Assembly (NCBI RefSeq): GCF_011045215.1
Contig: NZ_CP049201.1
From: Escherichia coli
GTDB lineage: Bacteria > Pseudomonadota > Gammaproteobacteria > Enterobacterales > Enterobacteriaceae
Direction: 5' to 3' (one strand)
Length of the DNA stretch: 64,000 nt
Both the position numbers and the translations under genes were made by a program. Positions within the stretch are counted from its first letter, which is position 1; each line of letters begins with the position of its first letter. The notes below the pieces were generated by a model. It had not been told where the DNA came from. It searched no databases and saw nothing but the letters and a program-made list of their open reading frames with translations. Shown here piece after piece: positions 7,425-22,990 of this stretch.

Positions 7425-7492
7425 AAGTGCGGGTGCGTTGAGGATGCCTGACACATCAGAGGTGGCGAGGGATTTCTCCCCCGCCAGGTCTC

Positions 7493-8465: not shown

Positions 8466-8466
8466 T

Positions 8467-8640
8467 TTATTCTTCCTCTTCGTCTTTTATTTCGTGATAT
8501 GAGTAATTGCAGTGATTAAAGAAAACATCAATTGCCTCGTTTTCTATTTCCTCAGGAATCGCGTCATCATCCACTTCAAATACATCTTCACGCACGCCAC
8601 CAACAATCCTCGTTTCGATAACTATTTTGAATTTTCGCAT
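8467..8640 (-). CDS. small acidic hypothetical protein
   Basis: Hand-translated 57-aa ORF ([57 protein letters not shown]), GGTGG upstream, tightly coupled to next gene; below ORF-track cutoff. Confidence 0.35.
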
Positions 8641-8730
8641 TGTCTTACCACCATTTCTGGCAGTCTCCTGATGTTCTGAGGGTGCAGAAATCCCTCCGGT
8701 TAAGGATTTTATTTTCGATAATAATATTGG

Positions 8731-9087
8731 TTATTCTGGTCTGGTTTTTGTCGCCCTGCGTATCCGCGCTTTCACATTGCGCTCAATCTGAATTAGCTTT
8801 TCTATATTTTTACGTCTTTCCCGTTCCTCCTGACGCAATTGTTTTACATCATCTGCCAGTCTGGTTTCTCTTTTCGCCACAGAGAGCATCCAGTCAAATG
8901 GCTCCACAACTGCACCGCAGATTTTACAACGGACCTGACGCTCTTTTTCATCAACCCTGACAGAGGCGTGATGGCAATATGGTTTCTCCGATGACTCATA
9001 AAGAAAATTAACCTGATTACGTGGGTCATCCTCTTTTACCGGAAATAAAACAATATTACTTAACTCATCTTCTGGTTTTATTTCCAC
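8731..9087 (-). CDS. hypothetical zinc-ribbon protein with basic coiled-coil tail
   Basis: Track ORF trimmed to GTG at 9085-9087 with AAGGAG 6 nt upstream, overlapping upstream TGA; contains CHH...CKIC. Confidence 0.45.
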   Translation of the reverse strand: MEIKPEDELSNIVLFPVKEDDPRNQVNFLYESSEKPYCHHASVRVDEKERQVRCKICGAVVEPFDWMLSVAKRETRLADDVKQLRQEERERRKNIEKLIQIERNVKARIRRATKTRPE

Positions 9088-9088
9088 G

Positions 9089-9418
9089 TCACTCTCCTTT
9101 GATGCGAATACCTGCCACACGTAGTGCATGCTCCAAATCAGCCAGATAAAGCCAGCGTCCATGCTCTCTGGGCATCATGACATATTGCTCATCGGCATTT
9201 ATCGGATGACCCCTTCGAAGGTCATAGCAAGTCGGTAACTGCACTGTCCTTGCTTCCAGCTCTGCAATGCGTTTATCTCTGGCTTCCAGTTCGTCCAGTA
9301 ACGCCAGCACAACCTGCGGTGTGACTTTCATGCGAAACGCCAGCAGTTTCTGAGGTGTGGACACTGTTTTTATTGCCTCTGCCACATCACGCAACGCCTG
9401 GTTGTTAATCTGATTCAC
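9089..9418 (-). CDS. hypothetical phage protein
   Basis: 109-aa ORF, start overlaps stop of upstream gene. Confidence 0.5.
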   Translation of the reverse strand: MNQINNQALRDVAEAIKTVSTPQKLLAFRMKVTPQVVLALLDELEARDKRIAELEARTVQLPTCYDLRRGHPINADEQYVMMPREHGRWLYLADLEHALRVAGIRIKGE

Positions 9419-9756
9419 TGCATCACCTCACGATTCCTCAACCAGATACAAACCGGTCCATCCTCGGTGTCATGAATGGAGCCAATAAACCAGCCCTCAC
9501 CCTCTGGTCGTTCAGGTTCCCATGCGGAAATATCGGGACCATCTGCATCCGGGTTAAAATCATCTTCATCCATACTGCGAATAGTCCACTGAAGATTATT
9601 TACCTTCATCCAGGCGTTAAATTCTTCCGTCGAAATATACTCCCGGCCATCACAAAATTTTTCATATTCAGGATGCGTCCAGCAGCCATATTCATCACGT
9701 TCTACCGGCAGTTCTTTGATTTCAATCAAAACATTAACTCCATTAAGATAATGCAA
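9415..9756 (-). CDS. hypothetical phage protein (acidic)
   Basis: 113-aa ORF in operon register. Confidence 0.5.
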   Translation of the reverse strand: MHYLNGVNVLIEIKELPVERDEYGCWTHPEYEKFCDGREYISTEEFNAWMKVNNLQWTIRSMDEDDFNPDADGPDISAWEPERPEGEGWFIGSIHDTEDGPVCIWLRNREVMQ

Positions 9757-9925
9757 AACAAATTAACCACACCACGACAACCGATGCTATTAACACCCTG
9801 ATTGCAAACAGCGGGCTGATATGTCGAAAAGGATTTTCCCAGATAATAAAAGCCGCTGCCAGAAATGCACTGATAAGTAAAACAATAACAAACAGCTCAA
9901 TTTTGATTATCCAGAACATATTCAC
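9743..9925 (-). CDS. small hydrophobic membrane protein
   Basis: 60-aa ORF, almost entirely hydrophobic. Confidence 0.35.
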   Translation of the reverse strand: MNMFWIIKIELFVIVLLISAFLAAAFIIWENPFRHISPLFAIRVLIASVVVVWLICFALS

Positions 9926-10212
9926 TGCATCGCCTTCTGTAAAATAACCGCATGCCCCAGCTTCTCCGCCAGCGCCAGTTCTGCCTTAGCACCCGCCGAC
10001 CGCTGCCAGCCATTCAGCATGTAAATCGCATCCACGCAACGTATCATCGCCATGCAGATATCCATGTACTGCGACTGAGTCAGTCCGTCCGGAAGTACTG
10101 CCGGGTTTAAGACGGTATGCCCTTCCCGTTTCAGTTCCTCTTCCGCTTTGTGAAACGCCTCACGGTTGAAGTTTTCATGGCCAGTCATCGGCCCTGCGAC
10201 ATAAACCTTCAT
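9922..10212 (-). CDS. DUF4406-like protein (nucleoside 2-deoxyribosyltransferase-like fold)
   Basis: N-terminus MKVYVAGPMTG is characteristic of this family. Confidence 0.55.
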   Translation of the reverse strand: MKVYVAGPMTGHENFNREAFHKAEEELKREGHTVLNPAVLPDGLTQSQYMDICMAMIRCVDAIYMLNGWQRSAGAKAELALAEKLGHAVILQKAMQ

Positions 10213-10658
10213 ATCGTTTTTACTGTCCCTTTATTGTCCCTGTAAAACATCAAAACCCGCTGCATAACATCGCTATTCCGGCACTCACGACAGATTATGT
10301 TCTGACGCCTGTCATAGCGGCGTATTTCTCCATCTGGTAATGAATAAATCAGGTCTGGGTCGCTCTTTTTCTTCGCTCTGTTTTTCTTCACTCCCCCTTT
10401 CGCGATCTTTTGGTGAGCCCTTTCCCAGTCCCTGTGCGCCTGCTCAGACGGAAATACCCCGTAGTCAGAGTTGTACACCTCACCGCTGGCAGCAAGCTCT
10501 CTGGATAAGCGACCGGTAGTGACTCTGCTGACACCCGTTTTATCTGCCAACTGCTGATGTGTTTCTCGCCCACTCTGGCGTACGAGCTCCACAATGCGCG
10601 CCTTCACTTCTTCCCGTTGTTCGTGTGTGAAAGGTTTTGCCATAAGCGCCTCCGGCAA
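10209..10658 (-). CDS. hypothetical phage protein, possible DNA-binding
   Basis: 149-aa ORF, basic, overlaps neighbours by 4 nt. Confidence 0.5.
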   Translation of the reverse strand: MPEALMAKPFTHEQREEVKARIVELVRQSGRETHQQLADKTGVSRVTTGRLSRELAASGEVYNSDYGVFPSEQAHRDWERAHQKIAKGGVKKNRAKKKSDPDLIYSLPDGEIRRYDRRQNIICRECRNSDVMQRVLMFYRDNKGTVKTI

Positions 10659-11429
10659 TCACTTTTCTGATGCAACACGGCGGGAAGAATCAGTCATCTG
10701 CCGGAAAATATCCCGGTGCTTGTTCAGCTCCCGCAGCGCAGCGCAGACACGTTCCCACTTCCGGATATGACTTTTTGCCCGGCGCAGTTCACGGTTTGCC
10801 ATATGTAGCGATGGCAGCATTACATAGTCGGTATGTTTTTCGGTGAACAATGGCAGTGACTGCACAATATCCGCCACCGTTTCTGTTTTAATTTCTTCCT
10901 GTGTTGCAACCTCCTGTACTGGTAACGCAACCCCCGCTGGCTGAGGAAAGGCTTTACCATCAGTTTCCGCTACCGATGCGGCTTTCAGTTCTGCTGGTAA
11001 ATTCTCGCCTGGCATGCAGTAACGAAATTTACCGTTCTGATTAACGCGTGCCAGTCGCCCTGTTGAGGTTACTACCGCCAGCGTGGAAGCAACCTTGCGA
11101 ATGCTGACACCGAACTTACCCGCCAGTTCCTCACACGTTTTAGCCCCCTCCTGGCCGATAAACTCAATCATCATGTCAGCGGTAACTTTTTGTTCGCCCA
11201 CCCCGGTTAGCACATCCGGTGCTTCAGATTGTACTGGCTGCTCTTCGGTTACCCCGGATTCACCTTCGCCAGCCAGAAACCAGGTGTGGCCAGTTTTATC
11301 AACGACGCCATTTCTTTTGAGTTCCCACAGCTCGTTCAGAACTTCTTCACGACTGATTTCAAGTCGTGCGACCAGTTCCACCGACGTGGCTTTTCCCATT
11401 GCTTTCAGTGCATCAAAAACGGTCTCCAT
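10659..11429 (-). CDS. hypothetical phage protein (DUF1627-like)
   Basis: 256-aa ORF following the helicase loader. Confidence 0.5.
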
Positions 11430-11468
11430 TAAAATTTCCTCCCGGTAAAATTATTTCTCAATTCCTGG

Positions 11469-12197
11469 CTAACCAACATTTGAACGCCAGCTCTCCCAGT
11501 TAAAATTCACCCAGCGACCACCGTTCATGGTCATGCGGTCCATCACGCGCTCGCCAAGCAGCGTATTCATTGCCGTATGGTTCAGGTTCGTCAGCATCCC
11601 GACGCTGTGCATCGAGGCTGTTCTGCGATCGACTATCTGGTTCAGTGTGACCTGTTCGTTACGCGTATCCCGCTGCATACCAATTTCATCCAGGACAAGC
11701 AGGTCAACTTCACACAACCCCTGCAAAAATTTTTCGCCCGAGTTTTTGTTGTCGTAGTTGCCGTGTAACGCCAGCATCACATCCGCCACCGTCACCACAA
11801 TCACGCTGCGACCTTTCGCCAGAAGATGGTTGCCAATGGCTGCTGCCAGATGATTCTTTCCGGTACCCGGCTTACCGCTGAACACGAAATTTGTGCATCC
11901 GGTCATCATTTCTTCCGCGATGGATTTTGCCTGGCTCAGCGCGTGGCGTTGGCCATCGTTCTTCACCTGGTAATTCGCAAACGAACACTTCTGGTGCAAC
12001 AGTTGGATACCGGAACGCTTCATAATTTTCTCCACCCGGATCTGGCGATTCTGGCGGTTAATTTCCTCACTACGCTTTCGCCCTTCTGCAAGCTGCCACT
12101 CTCGCCACTCGTCCACTGTCCGGTACGGCGCGGTTACATGCTGCGGGGCCAGCTTACGGATACGCTCAAGAACACCACCTGCCGCAATATTTTTCAT
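11469..12197 (-). CDS. DnaC/IstB-like replicative helicase loader
   Basis: Walker A FSGKPGTGKNHLAAAIG and Walker B LLVLDEIG; position equivalent to lambda P / Rac YdaV. Confidence 0.85.
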   Translation of the reverse strand: MKNIAAGGVLERIRKLAPQHVTAPYRTVDEWREWQLAEGRKRSEEINRQNRQIRVEKIMKRSGIQLLHQKCSFANYQVKNDGQRHALSQAKSIAEEMMTGCTNFVFSGKPGTGKNHLAAAIGNHLLAKGRSVIVVTVADVMLALHGNYDNKNSGEKFLQGLCEVDLLVLDEIGMQRDTRNEQVTLNQIVDRRTASMHSVGMLTNLNHTAMNTLLGERVMDRMTMNGGRWVNFNWESWRSNVG

Positions 12198-12203
12198 AAC
12201 CCG

Positions 12204-13313
12204 TTACCCCCTGAATCCCGGCGGAATTTCGGTATCCGGTTCAGAAATATGATTCACACAACGCTGGTTGTTCGTGCCGCTTACCGGGAGCAACCAGGGG
12301 TTTTCAAAATTCCGGTCCGGTCCAAAAAACGTCGTCGCTCGCTGAACAAATTCCGTTCCCGCTTTCCCGGTCGCCGCCAGGTATCTCGCGTAACGCCTCA
12401 CACCATCCAGCATGGTCTCTGGTGGCACCCCCTCGCGCAATCTGGCCTTCCAGGCACTGAATGCGGATTTCTTCGGGTTTGCCCCGGCACGCAACGGGTA
12501 TTCCCGCCAGACCTGTTCGAACACATCCGGATAATCCACTCGTCCCACAGGCCGCCCGGTGTTTTCCGGGACTACCCGATCGGCTTCCCGCTGAATGGCG
12601 GAATCGGCTTCAGGCTGCTGCAGTTGGTGTGATTGCTCCGACCCTGCGGTCATCACCTGCTGCACAGCGCCCGAATCGGTTTTCAGCGCATACGCCGAAT
12701 CGGCTTCCGGTGTCGTGCCTGCTGGCTGACCAGAATTTACGGTCTGAACATCCCCTGCCTGGTTCGTGGTGTTTTTTTCGCCATGAGCTATAGTGTTTTT
12801 GTCCTGTTCTTTCTCCTGCTCCTGTTCCTGTTCTTGGCTTCGAAGCCCCTTAAAAGCCCCTTCGAAGCCCCTTACCGAATTTCGGCTATTATTCCGCCTC
12901 ACATCCAGATGGAAATCCGTTTTATATCTGTCGTAAAACGCTGACAGAAAAGCGTTTTCAGGTAATGATGCATACTCATTCCTGACACCTGCACAACGGT
13001 TATCGCCAGGCTTCAACGTTTCCCCAACCTGCCAGGCTGCCATTTCATGGACCCAGACCATCTCGGCATCATGGTCATAGCTACAAAAACCAGCTTCAAC
13101 AGCCCTTTTAAGCCCCTTTGAAGCCCCTTCCAGACCAAGCCCGGTTTCATGAGCAAGGTATAAAACTGGCAGGTAATACAAACCCAGCATATTTGCGTGA
13201 GGGGATGTCATCAGGTAAAAAGCAACAACTTGCGCTTCTGCACCCGCCTTTCTAAGTTCTCTCCCCGTTTCTCCCAGCCAGAATCGCGGAGAAACTTTTG
13301 CGTAATCACGCAT
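12204..13313 (-). CDS. replication initiator (O-like / YdaU-like) with internal iterons
   Basis: Track ORF trimmed to ATG 13311-13313 preceded by GAGG; immediately upstream of the helicase loader; contains iteron-like repeats and an acidic QEQEQEQEKEQ linker. Confidence 0.65.
   Translation of the reverse strand: MRDYAKVSPRFWLGETGRELRKAGAEAQVVAFYLMTSPHANMLGLYYLPVLYLAHETGLGLEGASKGLKRAVEAGFCSYDHDAEMVWVHEMAAWQVGETLKPGDNRCAGVRNEYASLPENAFLSAFYDRYKTDFHLDVRRNNSRNSVRGFEGAFKGLRSQEQEQEQEKEQDKNTIAHGEKNTTNQAGDVQTVNSGQPAGTTPEADSAYALKTDSGAVQQVMTAGSEQSHQLQQPEADSAIQREADRVVPENTGRPVGRVDYPDVFEQVWREYPLRAGANPKKSAFSAWKARLREGVPPETMLDGVRRYARYLAATGKAGTEFVQRATTFFGPDRNFENPWLLPVSGTNNQRCVNHISEPDTEIPPGFRG
12843..12873. 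repeat. iteron-like direct repeats, three AAGCCCCTT copies at 11-bp period
   Basis: Copies at 12843-12851, 12854-12862, 12865-12873 inside the O-like gene. Confidence 0.6.
13101..13129. repeat. second iteron cluster (AAGCCCCTT x2 plus a degenerate copy)
   Basis: AGCCCTTTT at 13101-13109, then AAGCCCCTT at 13110-13118 and 13121-13129. Confidence 0.5.
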
Positions 13314-13530
13314 GGCTACCTCATCTGGTGCCGAACCTTCCTCCGGATATAATCTGTGGTTCCCAATCGACAGAACCAGAGGAGGTTCGACATGTATTTT
13401 TTGAAAAGCCTTTATCAGGCTCATGTATTAAATGTTGCAGCAACAAACCGCTGGTGTAACAGCCCCGAAATGCTCCCGGATTACAGAGCCTGGCTGCGCG
13501 CCGAAACATACCTTCGTCTCGACATATTGA

Positions 13531-14040
13531 TTAGCGAACTTCAAAAAGAGACTGCATCCATTCATAACCTTCAGGGTATCGACGCTGTTCGCATTCTGGT
13601 ATCGCGCCATAGTGCTCTCTCAATAATTGAAGTGCGTCATCTCTCTTTTTCTGAACTGATTTTCTTGCTTCAACCAGCTCTGGAATCAGCGAATATCCCA
13701 CCGAAAGTGATCCAATACCCACCTCATGTTGACGAGCAGTTACAAGATGTGCCATACAACCAGCGTGCTGGATTGACTCCCTGCTCAGAGGCTGAATGGG
13801 ATCACTCTCTGCTGAAGAAATACCAAGATTTGTATAATCCTCAATAAGCCCGGCACACGCTTCTGCATCAGCCAGCTTTATTCTGGTTTCCTTGCGCTGC
13901 TCTCTGGCTGACAAACGCCAGAGCAGCGCATTAGCTTTATGTATCAACCACTCTGCCAGCTCCACATCAGATAAACCGCCACGCCAGATGTGCGGACTGT
14001 TTTCGTAAACGCTCAGTGTCAATTTTTTGTCATTACTCAT
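13531..14040 (-). CDS. hypothetical protein between YdaT-like and O-like genes (strand ambiguous)
   Basis: 169-aa ORF from ATG 14038-14040, 13 nt after the YdaT-like stop, weak RBS; overlaps a plus-strand ORF that has a strong SD. Confidence 0.4.
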   Translation of the reverse strand: MSNDKKLTLSVYENSPHIWRGGLSDVELAEWLIHKANALLWRLSAREQRKETRIKLADAEACAGLIEDYTNLGISSAESDPIQPLSRESIQHAGCMAHLVTARQHEVGIGSLSVGYSLIPELVEARKSVQKKRDDALQLLREHYGAIPECEQRRYPEGYEWMQSLFEVR

Positions 14041-14053
14041 ATTTATTACCCAA

Positions 14054-14479
14054 TTAATGCACAGCCAGAGTGTTTCCTGCCGGGCCACCACGATTCATCT
14101 GATCGAACAGAACGATCGCTGATGCAACGAAATCATCAATATCTTTCACCAGCCGTTCCTTCGTCTCTACCAACTCCCGAAAATAAGCGGAACTGTGGCT
14201 GCGCATTCGGGCCACCAGCGGAGGCGGCATTGCTTTTTCGATCGCTGGTAACAACGCCTGAATTTTTTTAACCGCATCAGGGGTGTCTTTATCCAGCCAA
14301 CGGAAAATTTTCTGGGTATTACGAGCCAGCGCTTCCGGATGCCTGTCGTCATATAGCTCCGGGAACGTCATACCCAGCTCAAAATAAGCCTGGGTTATTT
14401 CAGCTGCCGGAACTTTTTCACCGTCCGGATGCGCCCAGGCATTCATCGCCATACGGATGTGTTCATGCTTGATTTTCAT
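14054..14479 (-). CDS. YdaT-like regulator (CII-like position)
   Basis: 141 aa; N-terminus MKIKHEHI and length match remembered Rac YdaT; follows the Cro-like gene with a 17-nt overlap. Confidence 0.7.
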   Translation of the reverse strand: MKIKHEHIRMAMNAWAHPDGEKVPAAEITQAYFELGMTFPELYDDRHPEALARNTQKIFRWLDKDTPDAVKKIQALLPAIEKAMPPPLVARMRSHSSAYFRELVETKERLVKDIDDFVASAIVLFDQMNRGGPAGNTLAVH

Positions 14480-14738
14480 GAATCAACTCCGGTGTATTTG
14501 GTGTGTTAGCCTTATCTCCAGCAGGCAACCCGTCAGTTGGATTCGGGTATAAATCTGGTCGCAATTCATGAGGAGTCACCCCAGTTGCAATATAAATTTG
14601 ACGAACCCGTTCCCCCGTCGGAACTCGACCATTGTATTCATTTGCCCATTTGTGTATTTGAGATGGCCAAGCCCCTATTGCACGCCCTAGTGGACGAATA
14701 CCACCAGCAATCTTTATTGCTTTGTCCAATGCTGTCAT
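14463..14738 (-). CDS. Cro/YdaS-like HTH regulator
   Basis: 91-aa ORF divergent from the repressor gene; GGAGG upstream; helix-turn-helix-like segment GIRPLGRAIGAWPSQIHKW. Confidence 0.65.
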   Translation of the reverse strand: MTALDKAIKIAGGIRPLGRAIGAWPSQIHKWANEYNGRVPTGERVRQIYIATGVTPHELRPDLYPNPTDGLPAGDKANTPNTPELIHENQA

Positions 14739-14807
14739 ACAACCTCCAGTTCAACTAATCATAACAATTGTTCACTTAAAACGAACATAAGTCAACACCT
14801 CGAGGAA

Positions 14808-14835
14808 TTGTTAGTGTTCACTGAACGGTTATAAT
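14808..14835 (+). promoter_or_regulatory. sigma70-like promoter for the repressor gene; transcript probably leaderless
   Basis: TTGTTA (14808-14813), 16-nt spacer, TATAAT (14830-14835); ATG at 14842, only 6 nt after the -10; palindrome GTTCAcTGAAC (14816-14826) in the spacer. Confidence 0.4.
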
Positions 14836-14841
14836 TGCTAA

Positions 14842-15231
14842 ATGGACATGAGAAAAAAGCAATACGACACCCCGCTAGCAGAAAGGTTAGATGCGATCTC
14901 TCAACAGCATCATTTAAGTGGTTCAGATTTAGCGCGTATCGCTGGTGTAGGTCGTTCATCAGTCAACGCATGGAAAAAAAGAGGAACAATCAGTAAAGAT
15001 TCCGCAGCCAAAATTGCAGAAGCCACAAACGTTTCCCTTTCTTGGCTACTGACAGGGAAAGAAGAGACAAATAGAGAAGCGCTTGATGATGACGAGAAGG
15101 CCCTGCTTGATGTTTACAGAAACCTGCCACCTGTAGAACGTAGAAATATGCTGGCAGCTTTTCAAATGCGACTTCAAAAACTGACCGAATTTTACTCAGA
15201 ATACGTCGACCCAATAACACGACAAAAATAA
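14842..15231 (+). CDS. prophage repressor-like HTH protein (XRE family, no peptidase domain)
   Basis: 129 aa; HTH segment LSGSDLARIAGVGRSSVNAWKK; divergent from the Cro-like gene across a 103-bp operator region. Confidence 0.65.
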   Translation: MDMRKKQYDTPLAERLDAISQQHHLSGSDLARIAGVGRSSVNAWKKRGTISKDSAAKIAEATNVSLSWLLTGKEETNREALDDDEKALLDVYRNLPPVERRNMLAAFQMRLQKLTEFYSEYVDPITRQK

Positions 15232-15399
15232 TTCTTTATTTTACAGAATCATACCGCCGCAAGGCGGTTTTTTTTACCTTTTACGTATTCATAATGTTGA
15301 CTTTTGTTCACCCAAAGAGAACAATGTATTCCATCAAAGCACAACGGTGCGACAGGTCTTAGTTCCGCTACCCCGGCGTTAAGGGGAAATGAGGTCAAC

Positions 15400-15555
15400 A
15401 TGGATACTATCGATCTTGGCAACAACGAATCTCTGGTATACGGCGTGTTCCCCAACCAGGACGGCACGTTCACCGCCATGACGTATACCAAAAGCAAAAC
15501 GTTTAAAACCGAATCTGGCGCGCGTCGCTGGCTGGAAAGAAACTCAGGTGAGTGA
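15400..15555 (+). CDS. small protein, YdaF-like
   Basis: 51 aa from internal ATG of the track ORF; resembles remembered Rac YdaF and occupies the same position next to the repressor. Confidence 0.45.
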   Translation: MDTIDLGNNESLVYGVFPNQDGTFTAMTYTKSKTFKTESGARRWLERNSGE

Positions 15556-15556
15556 T

Positions 15557-15685
15557 ATGGATTTCGACACAATCATGGAAAAGGCTTACGAAGAATACTT
15601 CGAAGGCCTTGCCGAAGGCGAAGAAGCTCTCAGCTTCAGCGAATTTAAACAGGCGCTTTCCAGTTCGGTAAAATCTAACGGCTGA
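15557..15685 (+). CDS. small acidic protein, YdaG-like
   Basis: Hand-translated 42 aa (MDFDTIMEKAYEEYFEGLAEGEEALSFSEFKQALSSSVKSNG); ATG 2 nt after the upstream stop. Confidence 0.45.
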   Translation: MDFDTIMEKAYEEYFEGLAEGEEALSFSEFKQALSSSVKSNG

Positions 15686-15714
15686 TAAGCGAAGCGGCAC
15701 CGCGAGGAATCAGT

Positions 15715-15933
15715 ATGCAGAAACGAGAACCCCTCATCATCGCACCAGACTATACCGATGATGAACTTTATGAGTGGATGCGCGGGAAGATACGCGCCAT
15801 TAATGACCTGAAGCAGGCCACTGACCACAAAGAGCGCCTCTCTGAAACACTGACGTCAGTGACGCAGGATATTATCGCTCTGGCAAAAAGCGCGGCATTA
15901 AACGTTTCGCGACCGGTAAAAACAACTGACTAA
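15715..15933 (+). CDS. hypothetical early-left protein
   Basis: 72-aa ORF with GAGGAA upstream. Confidence 0.4.
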   Translation: MQKREPLIIAPDYTDDELYEWMRGKIRAINDLKQATDHKERLSETLTSVTQDIIALAKSAALNVSRPVKTTD

Positions 15934-15944
15934 TGAGGTTAACC

Positions 15945-16103
15945 ATGAATGAGGCAGAACTGAGACACGTTATAGCATTGCTTCTGGAAGATGCAAAACG
16001 TCTACATGAACTGGAACCAAATGCAGGCACAGGGGCCCGTATTTTGTTAGCAAAAAAATGTCTTGCTTCACAAGTGGTAAAAGCAACTGAACAGCGAGGT
16101 TAA
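15945..16103 (+). CDS. hypothetical small protein
   Basis: Hand-translated 52 aa; TGAGG 7 nt upstream; stop overlaps next start (TAATGATG). Confidence 0.35.
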   Translation: MNEAELRHVIALLLEDAKRLHELEPNAGTGARILLAKKCLASQVVKATEQRG

Positions 16104-16741
16104 TGATGGAATTTAAAGATTTACCGCTATCAATCCAGGGGATTGCAGCACACACACTACGTCAACGTCTGAACGAAGCTATGGCTGAATCTGCAACGAA
16201 AGAAACCATTGATAACATGGCTCGTAATGTGCACGATGCGTTTACCGGATTGTATTTCTGTGCGTCTGTAAATAAACACGACCCAGAGAGTGTGGCAAAG
16301 AAAATTGCAGAAACGACAGTGCAAAACATCAATACGAAACCAACCGAAGACGAAATTGACCAGCCTGCCAGTGAACAAAAGAAAGAAAAATCGCCATATG
16401 CGGGGAACATGTTTGTTTATGACAAACTTATCCGAATTCGTGGCGAAATTCCGACTGAATACCTGGCAAAAATTCACCAGGCATTACTTAAAAATCTGGA
16501 AACGGAAGTATTTGATGGCAACACCAACGGCTCCTTCGTGGTGTCAGCCCTCACAAAAGAATGGGATACAGATAATCGCCGGAATGTTGCTACATGGTTA
16601 TTCAGCAACAAAGCTGCTGCCCTGGAAGCTGCGGCCTGTATTTGCGACCTGCTAAGGACAGACCGCAAATACAACCTGGATGTGTATAGCTATATTTATG
16701 CTGAACACTATCCACTCTGGATTGACTGGTTTAAAGGGTAA
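16103..16741 (+). CDS. hypothetical early-left protein, family not recognised
   Basis: 212-aa ORF translationally coupled to upstream small ORF. Confidence 0.55.
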   Translation: MMEFKDLPLSIQGIAAHTLRQRLNEAMAESATKETIDNMARNVHDAFTGLYFCASVNKHDPESVAKKIAETTVQNINTKPTEDEIDQPASEQKKEKSPYAGNMFVYDKLIRIRGEIPTEYLAKIHQALLKNLETEVFDGNTNGSFVVSALTKEWDTDNRRNVATWLFSNKAAALEAAACICDLLRTDRKYNLDVYSYIYAEHYPLWIDWFKG

Positions 16742-16903
16742 CACCTGCGGGACCGAGCCGACCAGCACCACGATTATTTTATCCTCCATTAAGGGGTGAA
16801 TTAAAAATGGAGACCAACACGCTGCTACGTGTGGTCGTGCGCCGGACACGGATAACCTTCCGGCATGCTCTTTAACAATCTGGATATCCACAACAGCAAT
16901 AAC

Positions 16904-17539
16904 CTACGGATTGCTGCTCAATGCTCTACCTATCTCTTCTTCAGATGGGGGCGGTATATAGTCATCATTGCGTTCAAATTTAAAGCGCGAATCACATTTC
17001 AGGCATTTAGAAATATGGAACTTATCATGCTCACCAATTTCAACAGGTTGAAGTATTGCTATTACACCATGCTGATAGCAATTGGGACAGGCATAGTGAA
17101 AACATGTGTCTTCTTCGTCGAGGCTGTTCCTGAAAGCATAGACAAAATGCCCAAAACCAGTTTTGTGTATCGTATAGCATTCAAGTTTTCGATTACGCTC
17201 GTCAATTTCATGACATTTTTACTTAAGCAAGAGTATTTCCTCGTACTGAAGCGCGAGCGTTTTCGCTAGCTCTGCGTTCTGTATTTGTAAGTCTGCCAGT
17301 TGGCGACGCATTTCGTAGACAGCCTTTTCACGTTCAGATTGGCTTTTTGCATCAAGTATTACCTGTAATAAATCAATCGAGACTTTAATTGCCGTTATTG
17401 ATGAAGTTATTCCAGATAGCATTCTTAACTCTCTTTGTTGTTGGGGTATCCGGATTATACAAAATTCTTGTTGTTGGGGAACAACAGGAACCACCTCGCC
17501 TGATGTGGTTAAAAGCAGGCACACAACACGAAAGCGCAC
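16904..17539 (-). pseudogene. coiled-coil/zinc-ribbon gene interrupted by an in-frame TAA
   Basis: Track ORF 17219..17539 ends at TAA (17219-17221); the same frame continues 104 codons to TAG at 16904-16906 with no ATG/GTG start and CPNC...CLKC zinc-ribbon motifs. Confidence 0.4.
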
Positions 17540-17984
17540 GGCGAAGGTTTCTTTTCCTTAGAAGGCTTGTCGTTAGATTTCTTCGGCCGTGCGCTTCCGG
17601 TTGTGGCAATCCGCGAAATGGCGCGGCGGTAAGTATGGCGGGGTTATCCTTACCCCCACTGGTAGCACCGGGTTGTCAGGTTGACCATACGCTTAAGTGA
17701 CAACCCCGCTACAACATCTCCATGTTGAGGCTTGTGTGAGACCTTTGGCGGCATCAGTTTAATTGCTGGCTGATGTCCGCCCTTTTTAAAGTGAATTTTG
17801 TGATGTGGTGAATGCGGCTAAGCGCACGCGGAACAGTTAAAAGACCATTTGTTCTCCGTATCAATACTTATGGGTAGGTACTTGCAGGCGGGTCCCTGTA
17901 TTCCGGCGTTAATTGTTAACTGGTTAACGTCACCTGGAGGCACCAGGCACCGCATCACAAAATTCATTGTTGAGGACGCGATAA

Positions 17985-18172
17985 TGGAAACGTTATTACT
18001 CAATTCCACTACGCCTGAGACTCGTTTTGAAATTGGCGTTATCACTGGCGATAAAAACTTTATTGAGGATGCCATTAATCAGATAAAGCATGAGCCAGAT
18101 TCATCAAATGAGATATGCATTGCTTCAATGCTGGCCCGTTTACGCCCGACGCAAAAAGGATGCTGGCAATGA
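17985..18172 (+). CDS. hypothetical small protein
   Basis: 62-aa ORF from internal ATG with GAGGA 7 nt upstream. Confidence 0.35.
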
Positions 18173-18372
18173 ATACCACATTTGCACTTGTTCTGACGGT
18201 TTTTCTTGTTTCCGGTGAACCAGTTGACATGGTTATTGGCGTATACAGCTCAATGAAAGAATGCATGGCTGCCGCAGATGAACAGAAAATTCCCGGTAAC
18301 TGTTATCCGGTCGATAAAGTTATTCACCAGGATAATAACGAAATCCCGGCAGGACTTAAAACAGCGCCGTAA
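18169..18372 (+). CDS. small protein with N-terminal signal/lipoprotein-like segment
   Basis: 67 aa (MNTTFALVLTVFLVSGEP...); ATG overlaps upstream TGA. Confidence 0.4.
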   Translation: MNTTFALVLTVFLVSGEPVDMVIGVYSSMKECMAAADEQKIPGNCYPVDKVIHQDNNEIPAGLKTAP

Positions 18373-18449
18373 TTGATATTCGGTTTCATTTTTATATGTC
18401 AGCAATGACAGGGATTTGTTCACCCTTAAATCTGTAATGAGGTTTATCA

Positions 18450-20885
18450 ATGAGCACTGATAAAGAAGAATTTGCATTATATTGTGAAGCAAAAAATGAC
18501 AAAGTCAGAAAACGCCTTGGAATTAAAGGTGGTTTTTACTGGACTACAGCAAAAAAATTATCTGTTGCCATCTCCCGCTGCATTACCGCAATGGATGACA
18601 ACGATTATGATGAAGACGACTTTAAAAAACCCGTCCGCGTCCATTTACCCGTTGTGAATGACCTTCCACCTGAAGGCGTGTTTGATACTGAATTCTGTAA
18701 CCGTTACGAAAAAGGCGGGGAAGATGGCATCACAATGGTATTTATCGCGCCCTCACCCTCTGCGCAGGACAAACCAGCCAACATTGACAATACCAACGTC
18801 AACGGCGAAGACATGACTGAGATTGAGGAGAACATGCTCCTGCCGGTTTCAGGTCAGATTCTGCCTGTTCGATGGCTGGCACAGCACGGCAGCAAAAAAC
18901 CGATCACACACGTTTCGCGGGACGAACTGCGCGCATTACATAACGCACAGGATGAAAAACTTCCCGCCGTTACCGCGCTGGCTATCTCAAATAAAGCAGC
19001 GCAACTCGAACCGCTGGAGATTCGCGATCTCCACAAACTGGTGCGAGACACTGACAAAGTTTTCCCCGCCCCCGTAAATTCGGACCTGGGACTGATAACC
19101 TCTTTTATCGAAGCATACCTAGACGCCGACTACACCGATCGCGGTCTGCTGACAAAAGAGTGGATGAAAGGAAATCGTGTTTCGCGTATCACCCGTACGG
19201 CTTCCGGTGCAAATGCCGGTGGCGGGAACAAAACCGATCGCAATCCGAATTTAGTACACACCTTCGATACGCTGGATGTGGAGATTGCAACAGCCACACT
19301 TCCGATGGATTTTAATATTTATGAAATTCCGGGCAGCGTTTATCGTCGCGCAAAAGAAATCGTCCTGAAAAGAGAAAGTCCGTTCAAAGAATGGTCCGCA
19401 GCACTTCGCGCAACCCCGGGTATTCTGGATTATTCCCGCGCCGCTATTTTTGCACTTATCCGGAGCGCTCACCCTGAGTTTTATCACTACCCGGGACGCC
19501 TTCAGGGGTATATCAACGCCCACTTAACGGAGACTGATCACGAGAACCCCAGCAAGGAAACTCTCACTGCTGCACGACATACACCGGAAAAAGACATCCT
19601 GGAAGAAGTTAACCGCGAACTGGCTGCTGAACGCGAAACAGAAGAAGAAAAAAATAATGAGGAAAAATCACAACCGTCTGACGCAATGGCAGATGAACAG
19701 GCAACGACTGAAGCAATGGGACAGGATACAACTGAATATCGCCAGGACACACAATCGCTGGATACTCAGGCACAGATAAATCCGGTTAATCAGGTAAAAG
19801 TTACCGCTGACGAAGTAAACAAAATTATGCAGGCAGCCAATATCAACCAGCCTGATGCCGACAAAATACTGGCAGTCCATCGCGGTGAATTCGTTGACGG
19901 AATTAGCGACCCGAATGATCCGAAATGGGTTAAGGGGATTGAAACCCGCGATTCTGTGAACCAGAACCAGCCCGAATCGGAACAAAACAGCCAAAATGCG
20001 TTACAAAACGAGCCAGAAACGAAACAGCCTGAACCAGAAGAGCAACAAGAACCGGAAAAAGTCTGCACCGCCTGCGGTCAGACCGGCGGCGGCAACTGTC
20101 CTGACTGTGGCGCGGTGATGGGCGACGCAACATACCAGGAAACATTCGATGAAAAAAATCAGGCTGAAGTTCAGGAAGATGATCCGGAGGAAATGGAAGG
20201 CGCTGAACATCCGAACAATGAGAATGCTGGTAACGATCAGTATCACGCCAGCGATAGTGAAACTGGCGAGGCGACAGATCCCTTAATTAATGTGAACGGT
20301 CATCACGAAATCACATCCACCAGCAGTACGTGTGACCATCTAATGATCGACCTTGAAACCATGGGAAAAAATCCTGATGCCCCGATTATCTCAATAGGTG
20401 CAATATTTTTCGATCCGCAAACCGGAGATATGGGACCGGAATTTAGTAAGACTATAGATCTGGAAACAGCTGGCGGAGTCATTGATCGTGACACCATTAA
20501 ATGGTGGCTTAAGCAATCACGCGAGGCGCAATCTGCCATTCTGACCGATGAAATCCCGTTAGATGATGCACTGTTGCAATTGCGGGAATTTATCGACGAA
20601 AACTCCGGCGAATTTTTTGTTCGTGTCTGGGGAAATGGAGCCAGCTTCGACAACGTAATTTTACGCCGTTCATATGAACGGCAGGGGATCCCCTGCCCGT
20701 GGCGTTACTACAACGATCGCGATGTACGCACAATTCTTGAACTGGGAAAAGCCATAGACTTCGATGCCAGAACGGCTATTCCATTCGAAGGCGTACCCCA
20801 CAATGCGCTGGACGATGCCCGTCACCAGGCAAAACAAGTTTCAGCTATCTGGCAAAACCTGATCCCGAGTCAGGCTGATTTTTAA
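18450..20885 (+). CDS. large phage exonuclease-like protein (C-terminal DnaQ/DEDDh-like 3'-5' exonuclease, acidic linker, zinc ribbon)
   Basis: 811 aa; C-terminus LMIDLETMG...WGNGASFDN...HNALDDARH fits DEDDh motifs; CTACGQTGGGNCPDCG zinc ribbon; E/Q-rich low-complexity centre. Confidence 0.7.
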   Translation: MSTDKEEFALYCEAKNDKVRKRLGIKGGFYWTTAKKLSVAISRCITAMDDNDYDEDDFKKPVRVHLPVVNDLPPEGVFDTEFCNRYEKGGEDGITMVFIAPSPSAQDKPANIDNTNVNGEDMTEIEENMLLPVSGQILPVRWLAQHGSKKPITHVSRDELRALHNAQDEKLPAVTALAISNKAAQLEPLEIRDLHKLVRDTDKVFPAPVNSDLGLITSFIEAYLDADYTDRGLLTKEWMKGNRVSRITRTASGANAGGGNKTDRNPNLVHTFDTLDVEIATATLPMDFNIYEIPGSVYRRAKEIVLKRESPFKEWSAALRATPGILDYSRAAIFALIRSAHPEFYHYPGRLQGYINAHLTETDHENPSKETLTAARHTPEKDILEEVNRELAAERETEEEKNNEEKSQPSDAMADEQATTEAMGQDTTEYRQDTQSLDTQAQINPVNQVKVTADEVNKIMQAANINQPDADKILAVHRGEFVDGISDPNDPKWVKGIETRDSVNQNQPESEQNSQNALQNEPETKQPEPEEQQEPEKVCTACGQTGGGNCPDCGAVMGDATYQETFDEKNQAEVQEDDPEEMEGAEHPNNENAGNDQYHASDSETGEATDPLINVNGHHEITSTSSTCDHLMIDLETMGKNPDAPIISIGAIFFDPQTGDMGPEFSKTIDLETAGGVIDRDTIKWWLKQSREAQSAILTDEIPLDDALLQLREFIDENSGEFFVRVWGNGASFDNVILRRSYERQGIPCPWRYYNDRDVRTILELGKAIDFDARTAIPFEGVPHNALDDARHQAKQVSAIWQNLIPSQADF

Positions 20886-20949
20886 TGTTCAACCCCGGTC
20901 GTCGCCCACTAGCTATAGTGGTGGCGACCATGATTAGCGAACGACGCTC

Positions 20950-21198
20950 ATGGCAAGACTTATTCTGCTCACTGAGTGGGCAAAAGAGGAATTCAGCGAT
21001 CCGGTCCCTACTCCGGGCACGTTAAGTAAATACGCTAAAGCCGGAATGATATTTCCTCTCCCCAAAAAAGTTGGAAGACACTGGCGAGTGGATCCACGAG
21101 CTCGCTTTGTCGGAATGGTAAACAAGCCGGAGGTGATCGCCACAGATCACCCTGCTTTGAAGAGGATACTGGAAGATGGCGCGCCCGCGAAAATATAA
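20950..21198 (+). CDS. xis: excisionase (lambda Xis-like)
   Basis: 82 aa, overlaps int start as in lambda; GMIFPLPKKVGRHWRVDPRARFVG resembles lambda Xis. Confidence 0.7.
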   Translation: MARLILLTEWAKEEFSDPVPTPGTLSKYAKAGMIFPLPKKVGRHWRVDPRARFVGMVNKPEVIATDHPALKRILEDGAPAKI

Positions 21199-22306
21199 AA
21201 CCGAAGTTCCGGGACTATCTCCGTATTTTGACAAAAGAAATAACAAAGTTTACTGGCGTTACAGGCATCCCATAACAGGCAAAAATCACGGTCTCGGCAG
21301 TATTGACCAGAAACTGGCAGAAACTATTGCAGCAGAAGCGAACAGCCGTCTTGCCAGGCAGCAAATGGAACAAATGCTCAGTCTGCAGGAGAAAATTATT
21401 AATGATACCGGCGGTTCATCAACCGTTTCCATTTTTCTGAATAATTACAGAAAAATTCAACAGGAAAGATATGAAAACGGAGAGATCAAACTCAACACGC
21501 TGAAACAAAAAGCGGCCCCTCTCAGGGTATTTGATGAACGTTTTGGCACCAGACCGTTAGATGCCATAACTGTAAAAGATGTGGTATCGGTGCTGGAAGA
21601 GTACAAGGCCAGAGGACATAACAGAATGGGGCAAATTTTCAGGAAGGTACTGATCGATGTTTTCCGGGAAGCTCAGCAAACAGGCGATGTTCCGCCAGGC
21701 TTTAACCCTGCAGAATCGGCAAAAAAACCGCAGGTGCGGATATCAAGACAGCGACTGACTTTTGATGAGTGGATGATGATTTATAACGCAGCGGAAAAGG
21801 ATGGTTACTTTTTACAGCGCGGCATGCTGCTGGCACTGATGACAGGCCAGCGCCTTTCAGATATTTGCAAAATGCAATTTTCGGATATCCGGGATGGTTA
21901 TCTTCATGTCGAACAGCAAAAAACAGGAACCCGGATTGCCATCCCTCTTGCTCTGCGTTGCAATAAATTAAATCTCACCCTGGATGATGTGGTGTCATCC
22001 TGTCGCGATTGCGTTCTTAGTCCGTGGCTATTGCACCACCATCATGCGAAAGGGACAGCCAAGCGCGGCGGGATGGTTAAGCCAGCAACGTTAACAGTTG
22101 CATTTAAAAAAGCGCGGGATTCTGTGGATTACAACTGGCGTGCTAATGGCACCCCACCCTCTTTCCATGAGCAGAGATCTTTATCAGAGCGATTGTTCAG
22201 AGAGCAGGGAATTGATACCCAAATTTTGCTGGGTCATTCGAATCAAAAAATGACCGATATTTACAACGATGCACGCGGCAAGGAGTGGAAAAAACTGGTC
22301 ATTTGA
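21176..22306 (+). CDS. int: tyrosine integrase (lambda Int family)
   Basis: 376 aa; LTFDEWMMIYNAA...LALMTGQRLSDICKMQFSDIRDGYLHVEQQKTGTRIAIPLAL aligns with remembered lambda Int catalytic region. Confidence 0.9.
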   Translation: MARPRKYKTEVPGLSPYFDKRNNKVYWRYRHPITGKNHGLGSIDQKLAETIAAEANSRLARQQMEQMLSLQEKIINDTGGSSTVSIFLNNYRKIQQERYENGEIKLNTLKQKAAPLRVFDERFGTRPLDAITVKDVVSVLEEYKARGHNRMGQIFRKVLIDVFREAQQTGDVPPGFNPAESAKKPQVRISRQRLTFDEWMMIYNAAEKDGYFLQRGMLLALMTGQRLSDICKMQFSDIRDGYLHVEQQKTGTRIAIPLALRCNKLNLTLDDVVSSCRDCVLSPWLLHHHHAKGTAKRGGMVKPATLTVAFKKARDSVDYNWRANGTPPSFHEQRSLSERLFREQGIDTQILLGHSNQKMTDIYNDARGKEWKKLVI

Positions 22307-22313
22307 TGACCAG

Positions 22314-22347
22314 TTTTGCAGAGGAGTTTTGCAGAGATTTTGCAGAG
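22314..22347. repeat. three direct TTTTGCAGAG repeats between int stop and ompW stop (att arm region)
   Basis: Copies at 22314-22323, 22327-22336, 22338-22347. Confidence 0.6.
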
Positions 22348-22351
22348 AAAA

Positions 22352-22990
22352 TTAAAAGCGGTACCCGGCAGAGAACATAAACACCCACGGATCCAGTCGT
22401 ACCGCGTCTTTCACGGGTGTTCCGTTAGATTTATAGCTGGCTGTGGTATCGATATCCATGTACCACACTGACATGTTAACCAACCAGTCACGGTTAATCA
22501 GATAATCAACCCCCACCTGCCCGGCAGCTCCCCAGGAATCTTTCAGACTGAGATCGGAAAGCCCCGCCTCTTTGCCATGATCGTTAAATCCATTATCAAA
22601 GAAGGTGGTGTAGTTAATACCTGCCCCAACATAAGGACGGAATTTGCTGCTGGCATCACCAAAATACCACTGCGCCATCAGTGTTGGCGGCAGATGATGA
22701 ACGGTTGCAATATCGCCGGTCGCCCGGGTGCCGATTTTATGGCGGAACGGCGTCGCTGCCAGTAATTCCACACCAATGTTGTCGGTCGCCATATAAGTAA
22801 ACGTCAGGCCCAGTTGAGTGTTATTGGTCACGCTGAATCCACCCAGACTTCCTAACGTACCACCAGCACCTTCTGTTGGACGTACGGTTGCAGAACCTGC
22901 ACGCATAAAAAATTCGCCTGCTTCATGCGCAAAGGCACTGCCAGAGAGAAGAGTTGTTACTGCCAAAGCCGCCACTGTTAACTTTTTCAT
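22352..22990 (-). CDS. ompW: outer membrane protein W
   Basis: 212 aa with signal peptide; matches E. coli OmpW. Confidence 0.95.
   Translation of the reverse strand: MKKLTVAALAVTTLLSGSAFAHEAGEFFMRAGSATVRPTEGAGGTLGSLGGFSVTNNTQLGLTFTYMATDNIGVELLAATPFRHKIGTRATGDIATVHHLPPTLMAQWYFGDASSKFRPYVGAGINYTTFFDNGFNDHGKEAGLSDLSLKDSWGAAGQVGVDYLINRDWLVNMSVWYMDIDTTASYKSNGTPVKDAVRLDPWVFMFSAGYRF

What the first reader, a model, noticed from the sequence alone, without database searches (positions are those of the whole stretch)
22307..22351. Prophage junction at the ompW 3' end with triple TTTTGCAGAG repeat
Only 45 bp separate the int stop from the ompW stop, and this interval holds three copies of TTTTGCAGAG spaced 13 and 11 bp apart. 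The attachment core therefore probably overlaps the last ompW codons, with the phage restoring the reading frame. The repeats are candidate integrase arm-binding sites.
Basis: partly seen in the sequence, partly recalled or inferred. Interest (0 to 1): 0.45.

Follow-up and report, generated by a model that had tools for sequence, protein, structure and literature searches.

The report
Integrase arm sites beside prophage-rebuilt ompW
This is the integrase-side end of a well-known E. coli prophage family (PPompW) that inserts about 100 bp inside the ompW gene and carries its own copy of the gene's last 29 codons; the three repeats are phage DNA and most likely the integrase's arm-binding sites, so the feature is real but ordinary.

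Summary
Three exact TTTTGCAGAG copies (22314-23, 22327-36, 22338-47) fill the 45 bp between the int and ompW stop codons.

The attachment core is not in or next to this interval. It lies inside ompW at 22443-22465, with extended similarity over 22438-77. Everything to its left is phage DNA, including the last 29 ompW codons and the repeats. A related lysogen keeps the displaced native ompW 3' end beside yciE. This is the published PPompW prophage family (Nakamura et al. 2021, 121-bp att, attP confirmed by PCR). About 1714 of 5426 complete E. coli genomes carry it at ompW.

The repeats are very probably P'-arm integrase-binding sites:
- The integrase has a lambda-type arm-binding domain.
- Phage 21, e14, a Klebsiella phage, a potC-site phage and five metagenomic relatives all have three TTTTG+N5 repeats in the same place, spaced 13 and 11-12 bp.
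- A fourth copy marks the outer end of the other arm in intact attP sequences.
- The variable half of the motif tracks the integrase N-domain.

No binding data exist. This is a routine lambda/phage 21-type attL; interest is low.

The parts
20950..21198 (+). Excisionase (xis), 82 aa, overlapping the int start
   Evidence: Pfam Exc PF07825, E 4e-7, above the curated cut-off. The homologue in the related lysogen is annotated as excisionase.
21176..22306 (+). Heterobivalent tyrosine integrase, 376 aa, of the PPompW / phage 21 clade
   Evidence: Pfam Arm-DNA-bind_1 PF09003 (aa 2-71, E 2e-21) plus Phage_int_M plus Phage_integrase. It is 98.4% identical to the PPompW Int, 50.5% to phage 21 Int and 36% to lambda Int. 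Candidate catalytic residues R226, K249, H331, R334, H354 and Y363 are invariant in the four-sequence alignment.
22295..22313 (.). Perfect hairpin CTGGTCAT-TTG-ATGACCAG spanning the int stop, flanked by A6 (22289-94) and T4 (22314-17). It is a possible two-way terminator for the convergent int and chimeric ompW transcripts.
   Evidence: RNA fold gives -14.9 kcal/mol (z -2.8) on the + strand and -17.0 kcal/mol (z -5.0) on the - strand, where it is followed by U6. It is identical in all PPompW-type sequences. The simple terminator scan did not list it. Function is inferred only.
22314..22323 (+). Arm-type repeat 1 (TTTTGCAGAG), outermost P' site next to int
   Evidence: It is phage-borne and absent from the K-12 empty site. 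Its centre lies -139 bp from the core centre in intact attP.
22327..22336 (+). Arm-type repeat 2 (TTTTGCAGAG)
   Evidence: centre at -126 bp.
22338..22347 (+). Arm-type repeat 3 (TTTTGCAGAG), innermost P' site
   Evidence: centre at -115 bp.
22352..22442 (-). Phage-borne replacement of the ompW 3' end: third base of codon 183, codons 184-212 and the stop
   Evidence: This stretch matches K-12 only patchily, whereas 22443-22560 is 100% identical. There are 8 non-synonymous and 11 synonymous codon differences from K-12. The native 3' end survives as a 126-bp pseudogene beside yciE in the related lysogen P393-F10.
22443..22465 (.). Minimal common core GTGGTATCGATATCCATGTACCA, the region where strand exchange must occur (ompW codons 176-183)
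   Evidence: This is the intersection of the attP/attB identity blocks of two phage lineages (alignments A2 and A4). It contains the imperfect inverted repeat GTGGTA(T)...(G)TACCAC. A 17-bp stretch, TCGATATCCATGTACCA, is invariant in all six sequences.
22438..22477 (.). Extended attP/attB similarity around the core
   Evidence: a 40-bp block shared by attB, both junctions of P393-F10 and the window, with polymorphic positions at 22442 and 22466. The published 121-bp att corresponds to window 22350-22470.
22352..22990 (-). Chimeric but full-length ompW, 212 aa: host codons 1 to about 182 and phage codons about 183-212
   Evidence: It has the same length as K-12 OmpW.
1..22442 (.). Int-proximal part of a lambdoid prophage that runs off the left edge of the window
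   Evidence: It encodes a GH108 endolysin, holin, DNA methylase, DUF968 protein, DnaC-like protein, CI-like repressor, exonuclease, xis and int. yciE/F/G and the far junction are not in the window.

Best explanation
The interval 22307-22351 is the outer part of the P' arm of a lambda/phage 21-type attachment site, preserved at the int-proximal junction (attL, BOP' in lambda terms) of a PPompW-family prophage in E. coli.

The phage integrates inside ompW. Strand exchange occurs in the core GTGGTATCGATATCCATGTACCA (22443-22465, codons 176-183). The phage carries its own diverged copy of the last 29 ompW codons plus the stop (22352-22442), so the lysogen keeps a full-length, chimeric OmpW. The native 3' end is displaced to the far end of the prophage, outside this window.

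The three TTTTGCAGAG repeats lie between that ompW copy and the int stop. They are most likely the arm-type sites bound by the N-terminal arm-binding domain of Int, equivalent to lambda P'1-P'3. A single copy at the outer end of the other arm, next to an IHF-like site, would be the P1 equivalent. Int would bridge the arm sites and the core to build the recombination complex.

Shown here: the position of the junction, the phage origin of the repeats, the domain make-up of Int, and conservation of the layout across the clade. Inferred: actual binding of Int to the repeats, the exact cleavage positions, use of IHF, and the terminator role of the hairpin at 22295-22313.
For: Junction position:
- The K-12 empty site is 100% identical to the window only from 22443 rightwards. 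The stretch 22352-22442 is a diverged copy.
- The related lysogen P393-F10 has a 126-bp ompW 3' remnant next to yciE at the far prophage end.
- Intact attP sequences (int, repeats, ompW copy, core, P arm) were recovered from IMG/VR and from E. coli genomes.
- PMC8112680 reports PPompW integration into ompW with a 121-bp attL/R, and attP confirmed by PCR sequencing. GenBank LC567822 annotates the duplication.

Repeats:
- They are absent from the empty site.
- Across five PPompW-type sequences, 1 of 30 repeat columns varies, against 2 of 4 spacer columns and 22 of 91 ompW-copy columns (Fisher p = 0.008).
- Int has PF09003 Arm-DNA-bind_1 with E 2e-21.
- Three TTTTG+N5 repeats spaced 13 and 11-12 bp lie just past the int stop in phage 21, Klebsiella phage Kp4865-4, the potC-site phage 640R1 and IMG/VR relatives L071, L079, L083, L086 and L087. 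In e14 the same triple lies just after the rebuilt icd.
- The phage 21 record annotates its triple as attP subsites P1P2P3.
- A fourth copy in the same orientation sits at +138 bp, against -139, -126 and -115 bp for the triple, next to an IHF-consensus match. Similarity between phage lineages stops just beyond it.
- Phage 21 has the same 1+3 layout, with 4 matches against 0.29 expected.
- Int N-domain identity is higher within a motif class (62-91%) than between classes (45-64%).
Against: - There is no binding, footprinting or mutational evidence for this integrase.
- The P arm and far junction of this particular prophage are outside the window, so the 1+3 layout is shown only in relatives.
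- No IHF-consensus match was found in the long P' arm.
- No convincing second P-arm site (a P2 equivalent) was found.
- One Int relative (L068) has no TTTTG triple directly after int, although AT-rich cargo appears to be inserted there, as in e14.
- Within-class and between-class N-domain identities overlap slightly.
- The experimental support I recall for the phage 21 dodecamers (Wang et al. 1997, J Bacteriol 179:5705) could not be read here.
Confidence: 0.8

Rival explanations
1. The three repeats are binding sites for the excisionase (Xis) or another directionality or bending factor, not for Int. Lambda Xis also binds closely spaced direct repeats.
For: The repeats are head-to-tail with roughly one-helical-turn spacing. 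A lambda-type Xis gene is adjacent. xis is linked to int, so covariation of the motif with the Int N-domain does not rule Xis out.
Against: The same motif is present on both arms, at symmetric outer positions (-139 and +138 bp), and likewise in phage 21. That is the pattern of Int arm sites. Lambda Xis sites lie on one arm only, the P arm, distal to int (established knowledge). From memory, the phage 21 minimal attP for Xis-independent integration in vitro includes the outermost dodecamers (Wang et al. 1997, not verified here).
Confidence: 0.07
2. The repeats act mainly at the RNA level, as the 3'-UTR and terminator module that the phage supplies for the rebuilt ompW and/or for int. Any DNA-binding role would be secondary.
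For: The repeats lie between the ompW stop and a stable hairpin followed by U6 on the ompW strand. The native ompW terminator hairpin is displaced to the far junction. Phage 21 carries an annotated terminator after its icd copy.
Against: The TTTTG+N5 triple occurs beside int whatever the host gene is (icd, potC, ompW and others). It also has a partner on the far attP arm, where no ompW transcript runs. Rfam finds nothing here. The hairpin alone would explain termination.
Confidence: 0.05
3. One reading: the core lies in the 45-bp interval or the last few ompW codons, and the whole ompW ORF is host DNA.
For: Megablast alignments to prophage-free genomes begin at 22350, right at the ompW stop.
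Against: That boundary is an artefact of the partial similarity of the phage-borne ompW copy. True identity starts at 22443. A 126-bp ompW remnant sits at the far junction of a related lysogen. Intact attP contains the ompW copy between the repeats and the core. The published att is 121 bp.
Confidence: 0.02
4. The repeats are a functionless slippage duplication that hitch-hikes next to int.
For: Short tandem arrays can arise by replication slippage. Only about 5 distinct PPompW-type sequences were compared.
Against: The number, position, spacing and TTTTG half-site are conserved across integrases only 44-55% identical, with different N5 halves. The repeat units are conserved while the spacers change.
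Confidence: 0.03

Closest known systems
PPompW prophages of STEC/EPEC (Nakamura et al. 2021, PLoS Pathog, PMC8112680; GenBank LC567818-LC567841)
   Same: The integrase is the same (98.4% amino-acid identity, 96% DNA identity over xis-int-att). The target is the same (inside ompW). The 121-bp imperfect duplication corresponds to window 22350-22470. The three repeats, the hairpin and the order int, repeats, ompW copy, core are the same.
   Different: The window carries a variant P' arm. The spacers are GAG and A instead of GGG and G. The ompW-copy allele encodes SYKSNGTPVKDA instead of KYKSGVTTVKDS. The rest of the prophage is mosaic, and no genome covers 80% or more of window 1-21000. The paper does not mention arm sites (the word 'arm' occurs 0 times).
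Phage 21 and e14 integration into icd
   Same: The integrase belongs to the same clade (50% identity). The core lies inside a host ORF, and the phage carries a replacement 3' end (53 codons of icd). Three TTTTG+N5 repeats lie between that copy and int, and one more copy plus an IHF-like site lies on the far arm.
   Different: The host gene differs (icd, not ompW). The N5 half of the motif differs (GGGAA in phage 21, ATAAC in e14, CAGAG here). The P' arm is longer (about 230-270 bp against about 115-140 bp). In phage 21 a separate terminator lies between the gene copy and the repeats, whereas here a hairpin sits at the int stop. In e14, int has been moved 3.3 kb away by inserted genes.
Bacteriophage lambda attP (P1, P2 / P'1-P'3 arm-type sites, IHF, Xis)
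   Same: Int is heterobivalent, with the PF09003 arm-binding domain. Three tandem arm sites abut the 3' end of int. Arm sites occur on both arms. An IHF-like site lies beside the outer P-arm site. A lambda-type Xis is present.
   Different: Int is only 36% identical. The arm motif is unrelated to lambda's C/AAGTCACTAT (from memory). The P' sites lie about 115-140 bp from the core rather than about 55-85 bp, because a gene fragment is embedded in the arm. The core is intragenic. Only one P-arm site was recognised.

Membership tests
PPompW prophage family (criteria of PMC8112680: integrase over 90% identity and coverage to the O145:H28 PPompW int; ompW locus split by the insertion) | Integrase over 90% identical over more than 90% of its length | tested here: met
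   98.4% amino-acid identity over 100% of the length to the PPompW_132418/14040 Int. DNA identity is 96% over xis-int-att.
PPompW prophage family | Prophage inserted in ompW with a roughly 121-bp imperfect duplication of the ompW 3' end at both junctions | tested here: inconclusive
   The int-side copy is present at window 22350-22470. The far junction lies outside the window. The remnant is present in the related lysogen P393-F10 and in LC567822.
Lambda-family heterobivalent tyrosine integrase attP with arm-type sites | Integrase with an N-terminal arm-type DNA-binding domain plus a tyrosine-recombinase catalytic domain | tested here: met
   PF09003 scores 76 bits (cut-off 22) and PF00589 scores 61.6 bits (cut-off 27.1). 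R226, K249, H331, R334, H354 and Y363 are invariant in alignment A3.
Lambda-family heterobivalent tyrosine integrase attP with arm-type sites | A repeated motif distinct from the core, present on both arms of attP | tested here: met
   There are three copies in P' (window 22314-47). One copy lies at +138 bp in the P arm of three related attP / far-junction sequences. The P arm of this particular prophage is not in the window.
Lambda-family heterobivalent tyrosine integrase attP with arm-type sites | A core shared by attP and attB, with inverted core-type half-sites around a 6-8 bp overlap | tested here: inconclusive
   There is a 23-bp common core containing the imperfect inverted repeat GTGGTAT / GTACCAC 10 bp apart. 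Cleavage positions are unknown.
Lambda-family heterobivalent tyrosine integrase attP with arm-type sites | Sites for accessory bending proteins (IHF) within the arms | tested here: inconclusive
   The P arm holds AATCAATCAGTTA (9 of 9 consensus positions) or variants matching 8 of 9, beside the outer site. No match was found in the P' arm.
Lambda-family heterobivalent tyrosine integrase attP with arm-type sites | Direct binding of the Int N-domain to the repeats, and their requirement for recombination | not testable with these tools
   This needs EMSA or footprinting and attP mutagenesis.
Phage 21/e14-type intragenic integration with 3'-end replacement | Crossover inside a host ORF, with a phage-borne substitute 3' end that keeps the ORF full length | tested here: met
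   The core covers codons 176-183. The phage supplies codons 184-212 and the stop. The ORF stays at 212 aa, as in K-12.
Phage 21/e14-type intragenic integration with 3'-end replacement | Integrase of the phage 21/e14 clade with the TTTTG+N5 triple next to the gene copy | tested here: met
   Int is 50% identical to phage 21 Int. The triple has spacing 13/11 here, 13/12 in phage 21 and 13/11 in e14 read in int sense.

The most novel reading that the evidence does not exclude
Integration of PPompW-type phages rewrites a surface loop of OmpW. The phage-supplied 29 codons keep the last beta-strand identical (synonymous changes only) but change 8 residues in the connection between the last two strands (NYKLGGAQQHDS becomes SYKSNGTPVKDA; other phage lineages give KYKSGVTTVKDS). 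By the standard topology of 8-stranded barrels, this connection is extracellular loop 4. If this changes recognition by OmpW-dependent phages, bacteriocins or antibodies, then about a third of sequenced E. coli carry a prophage-imposed receptor variant, a form of lysogenic conversion by gene-end replacement. A second, milder novel reading is that the TTTTG+N5 triples and the Int N-domains form a readable arm-site specificity code across the phage 21/e14/PPompW clade.
Probability: 0.15. Interest if true: 0.5.

Novelty: already known. Interest (0 to 1): 0.15.

Why it matters
It matters little beyond correct annotation.

- The true junction lies about 100 bp inside ompW. The ompW ORF in roughly 1714 of 5426 complete E. 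coli genomes is therefore a host-phage chimera.
- The similarity boundary at the ompW stop (about 22350) that BLAST comparison gives is not the crossover point.
- TTTTGCAGAG as the arm-type site of this integrase appears not to be stated in the papers I could search. It gives a simple marker for delimiting PPompW-type attP, attL and attR, and for recognising intact attP copies inside prophage clusters.
- The clade-wide TTTTG+N5 layout could help predict att arms for related integrases.

Tried and rejected
- I looked for the far junction, yciE and a second copy of the core in the window. None is present, so the prophage runs off the left edge.
- The megablast boundary at 22350 was at first taken as the junction. 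I rejected this after base-level alignment.
- Most IMG/VR integrase loci were useless for the arm, because those contigs end exactly at the int stop. Only 9 extended further. A DNA-pattern scan for the hairpin recovered 9 more stretches.
- Rfam found nothing in 20000-25000 at E up to 1.
- The simple terminator scan did not call the 22295-22313 hairpin. The likely reason is that the flanking A and T runs extend the stem and use up the T tail.
- I found no IHF-consensus match in the P' arm and no convincing second P-arm site.
- Wang et al. 1997 on the phage 21/e14 attP is not held. Literature searches for the motif returned only unrelated primer sequences.
- L068, the one relative without an adjacent triple, has AT-rich cargo directly after int. 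I did not treat it as a counter-example.
- Colicin S4 contact residues reported for OmpW (D116, H117, E120 in mature numbering; PMC5755745) lie outside the replaced segment. A colicin S4 effect is therefore not predicted.

Full report
**Observation.** The int ORF (21176-22306, +) ends with TGA at 22304-06, followed by a second TGA. ompW (22352-22990, -) has its stop at 22352-54, so 45 bp separate the two genes. TTTTGCAGAG occurs exactly three times in the 64-kb window, at 22314-23, 22327-36 and 22338-47, with spacing of 13 and 11 bp. Tandem Repeats Finder reports the array. The description is accurate, and the clustering of three exact 10-mers in 34 bp is not chance.

**Context.** To the right lie ompW, yciC, yciB, yciA and tonB, and further on the opp operon, which is 99.6% identical to E. 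coli genomes. To the left lie xis (Pfam Exc), an 811-aa exonuclease, a CI-like repressor, a DnaC-like protein, DUF968, a DNA methylase, a holin and a GH108 endolysin. This is the int-proximal half of a lambdoid prophage that continues past the window start. yciE/F/G, which flank ompW in K-12, are not in the window.

**Where the junction really is.**
- Megablast to prophage-free genomes starts at 22350, which looks like a junction at the ompW stop. Base-level alignment shows otherwise.
- The window is 100% identical to K-12 from 22443 to at least 22560. The stretch 22352-22442 matches only in patches.
- In the closest lysogen (P393-F10, 98.8% identical over the junction), PGAP annotates a 126-bp 'OmpW family, missing N-terminus' pseudogene beside yciE at the far prophage end. 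That remnant is K-12-like.
- The phage therefore inserts inside ompW and brings a diverged copy of the 3' end.
- I compared attB, both junctions and intact attP sequences from IMG/VR (L088, L090, L091). The identity blocks of the phage lineages intersect in GTGGTATCGATATCCATGTACCA, which is window 22443-22465 and ompW codons 176-183.
- A 17-bp stretch of that core is invariant. Extended similarity covers 22438-22477.
- The core contains the imperfect inverted repeat GTGGTAT / GTACCAC, 10 bp apart. This is a plausible pair of core-type half-sites, but that is inference.
- The phage-specific part encodes the third base of codon 183, codons 184-212 and the stop. It has 8 amino-acid changes and 11 synonymous codon changes relative to K-12, and the ORF stays at 212 aa.

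**Already published.** Nakamura et al. [quoted passage not shown] They detected excised circles by PCR and sequenced attP. GenBank LC567822 annotates the 121-bp duplication, which corresponds to window 22350-22470. Its Int is 98.4% identical to the window's. In one search, 1714 of 5426 complete E. coli genomes have this int directly beside ompW.

**The repeats.**
- They are phage DNA. The K-12 sequence downstream of ompW lacks them, and they sit between int and the ompW copy in intact attP.
- Across five PPompW-type sequences, 1 of 30 repeat columns varies. By contrast 2 of 4 spacer columns and 22 of 91 ompW-copy columns vary (Fisher p = 0.008).
- Int carries the lambda-type arm-binding domain PF09003 (E 2e-21) plus the catalytic domain.
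- The layout recurs throughout the integrase clade. In every case there are three TTTTG+N5 repeats just past the int stop:
  - phage 21: TTTTGGGGAA, spacing 13/12, annotated in OL657228 as 'attP ... 3 subsites P1P2P3', preceded by a 53-codon icd copy and a terminator;
  - Klebsiella phage Kp4865-4: TTTTGATAA, spacing 13/11;
  - the potC-site phage 640R1: TTTTGGRGAR, spacing 13/11;
  - IMG/VR relatives L071, L079, L086 and L087: TTTTGCAGRR, spacing 13/11; and L083: a TTTTGGGGAG-type motif;
  - e14 in MG1655: the triple lies right after the rebuilt icd, although intE is now 3.3 kb away.
- In intact PPompW attP the triple is centred at -139, -126 and -115 bp from the core. A fourth copy, TTTTGCAG(A/G)(A/G) in the same orientation, lies at +138 bp beside an IHF-consensus match.
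- Similarity between otherwise different phages ends just beyond that fourth copy. The attP span is about 287 bp.
- Phage 21 has the same 1+3 arrangement, with an IHF-like site next to the lone copy.
- Int N-domain identity is higher within a motif class (62-91%) than between classes (45-64%).

**Mechanism (best explanation).** This is a lambda-like heterobivalent recombination system. The C-terminal domains of Int act at the intragenic core. The N-terminal domain binds the TTTTGCAGAG arm sites on P' (three) and P (one). IHF-type bending brings the arms to the core, and Xis directs excision. Binding, cleavage positions and the IHF requirement are inferred.

**The hairpin.** CTGGTCAT-TTG-ATGACCAG (22295-22313) is flanked by A6 and T4. 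It folds at -14.9 and -17.0 kcal/mol on the two strands. It may terminate both int and the rebuilt ompW, whose native terminator went to the far junction. This is inference, and the simple scan did not call it.

**Rivals.**
- Xis sites (0.07). This is disfavoured because the motif lies on both arms.
- A purely RNA-level 3'-UTR role (0.05). This is disfavoured because the triple accompanies int whatever the host gene is.
This is refuted by the alignments.
- A functionless slippage array (0.03). This is disfavoured by clade-wide conservation.

**Comparison and novelty.** The locus is a member of the published PPompW family. It works like phage 21/e14 at icd and like lambda attP in general. The one detail I could not find stated in the searchable literature is that TTTTGCAGAG is the arm-type motif of this integrase. 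That is an expected property of a known kind of site.

**Side observations.**
- The replaced OmpW segment changes the connection between the last two strands, which is extracellular loop 4 by standard barrel topology.
- 489 of 5426 genomes carry an intact attP beside a PPompW-type int inside prophage clusters. This seems to be what PMC8112680 calls 'attB-in-PP_3'.
- In one IMG/VR contig the core is joined to a truncated fimbrial usher gene.

Noticed in passing
window 22352-22442 (- strand), OmpW residues 184-196: The phage-supplied ompW end keeps the last strand (VRLDPWVFMFSAGYRF) identical through synonymous changes only. It alters 8 residues in the preceding loop (NYKLGGAQQHDS becomes SYKSNGTPVKDA). 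Other PPompW lineages carry yet other loop versions (KYKSGVTTVKDS, SYKFNGTPVKDS). OmpW is a known colicin S4 and phage receptor, but the reported colicin S4 contact residues lie outside this segment.
   Followed up: partly
L097 (E. coli O157:H7 EC4115, NC_011353.1) 5896-7501; also L088, L090, L092-L095: 489 of 5426 complete E. coli genomes hold an unrecombined attP (three repeats, ompW copy, core, IHF-like site, fourth repeat) directly beside a PPompW-type int inside prophage clusters, followed by T3SS-effector cargo. This looks like the '121-bp attB-in-PP_3' of PMC8112680. In this context it has the full structure of an attP rather than an attB, so these prophages entered the chromosome by some route other than their own att.
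   Followed up: partly
L096 5215-6799 (IMGVR_UViG_643886067_000001): A PPompW-type int with its repeats, ompW copy and core is joined not to ompW but to a fimbrial usher gene truncated at about 480 aa (Pfam Usher and PapC_N). A chaperone gene and a fimbrial subunit gene follow. This is a possible secondary attachment site that disrupts the usher.
   Followed up: partly
L098 1443-1476 (E. coli K-12 MG1655, e14 next to icd): e14 keeps three KTTATCAAAA repeats (spacing 11 and 13 bp) 70 bp after the rebuilt icd stop. This is the same motif as in Klebsiella phage Kp4865-4, whose Int is 84% identical. In e14, intE has been separated from the repeats by ymfD, ymfE and lit.
   Followed up: partly
window 22289-22317: A6, an 8-bp perfect hairpin and T4 overlap the int stop, which is a double stop (TGA TGA). 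This is a possible bidirectional terminator shared by the convergent int and ompW. It is identical in all PPompW-type sequences.
   Followed up: partly
L068 2625-3200: An Int relative (57% identical, N-domain closest to the TTTTGCAG class) has no TTTTG triple directly after int. AT-rich sequence follows instead, suggesting cargo inserted between int and its arm sites, as in e14.
   Followed up: no
window 1-21000: The prophage body is mosaic. No complete E. coli genome covers 80% or more of it, and the best match covers 70% at 94% identity. It includes an N6/N4 DNA methylase (2194-3237, -) and an 811-aa Exonuc_VIII plus 3'-5' exonuclease fusion (18450-20885, +).
   Followed up: no
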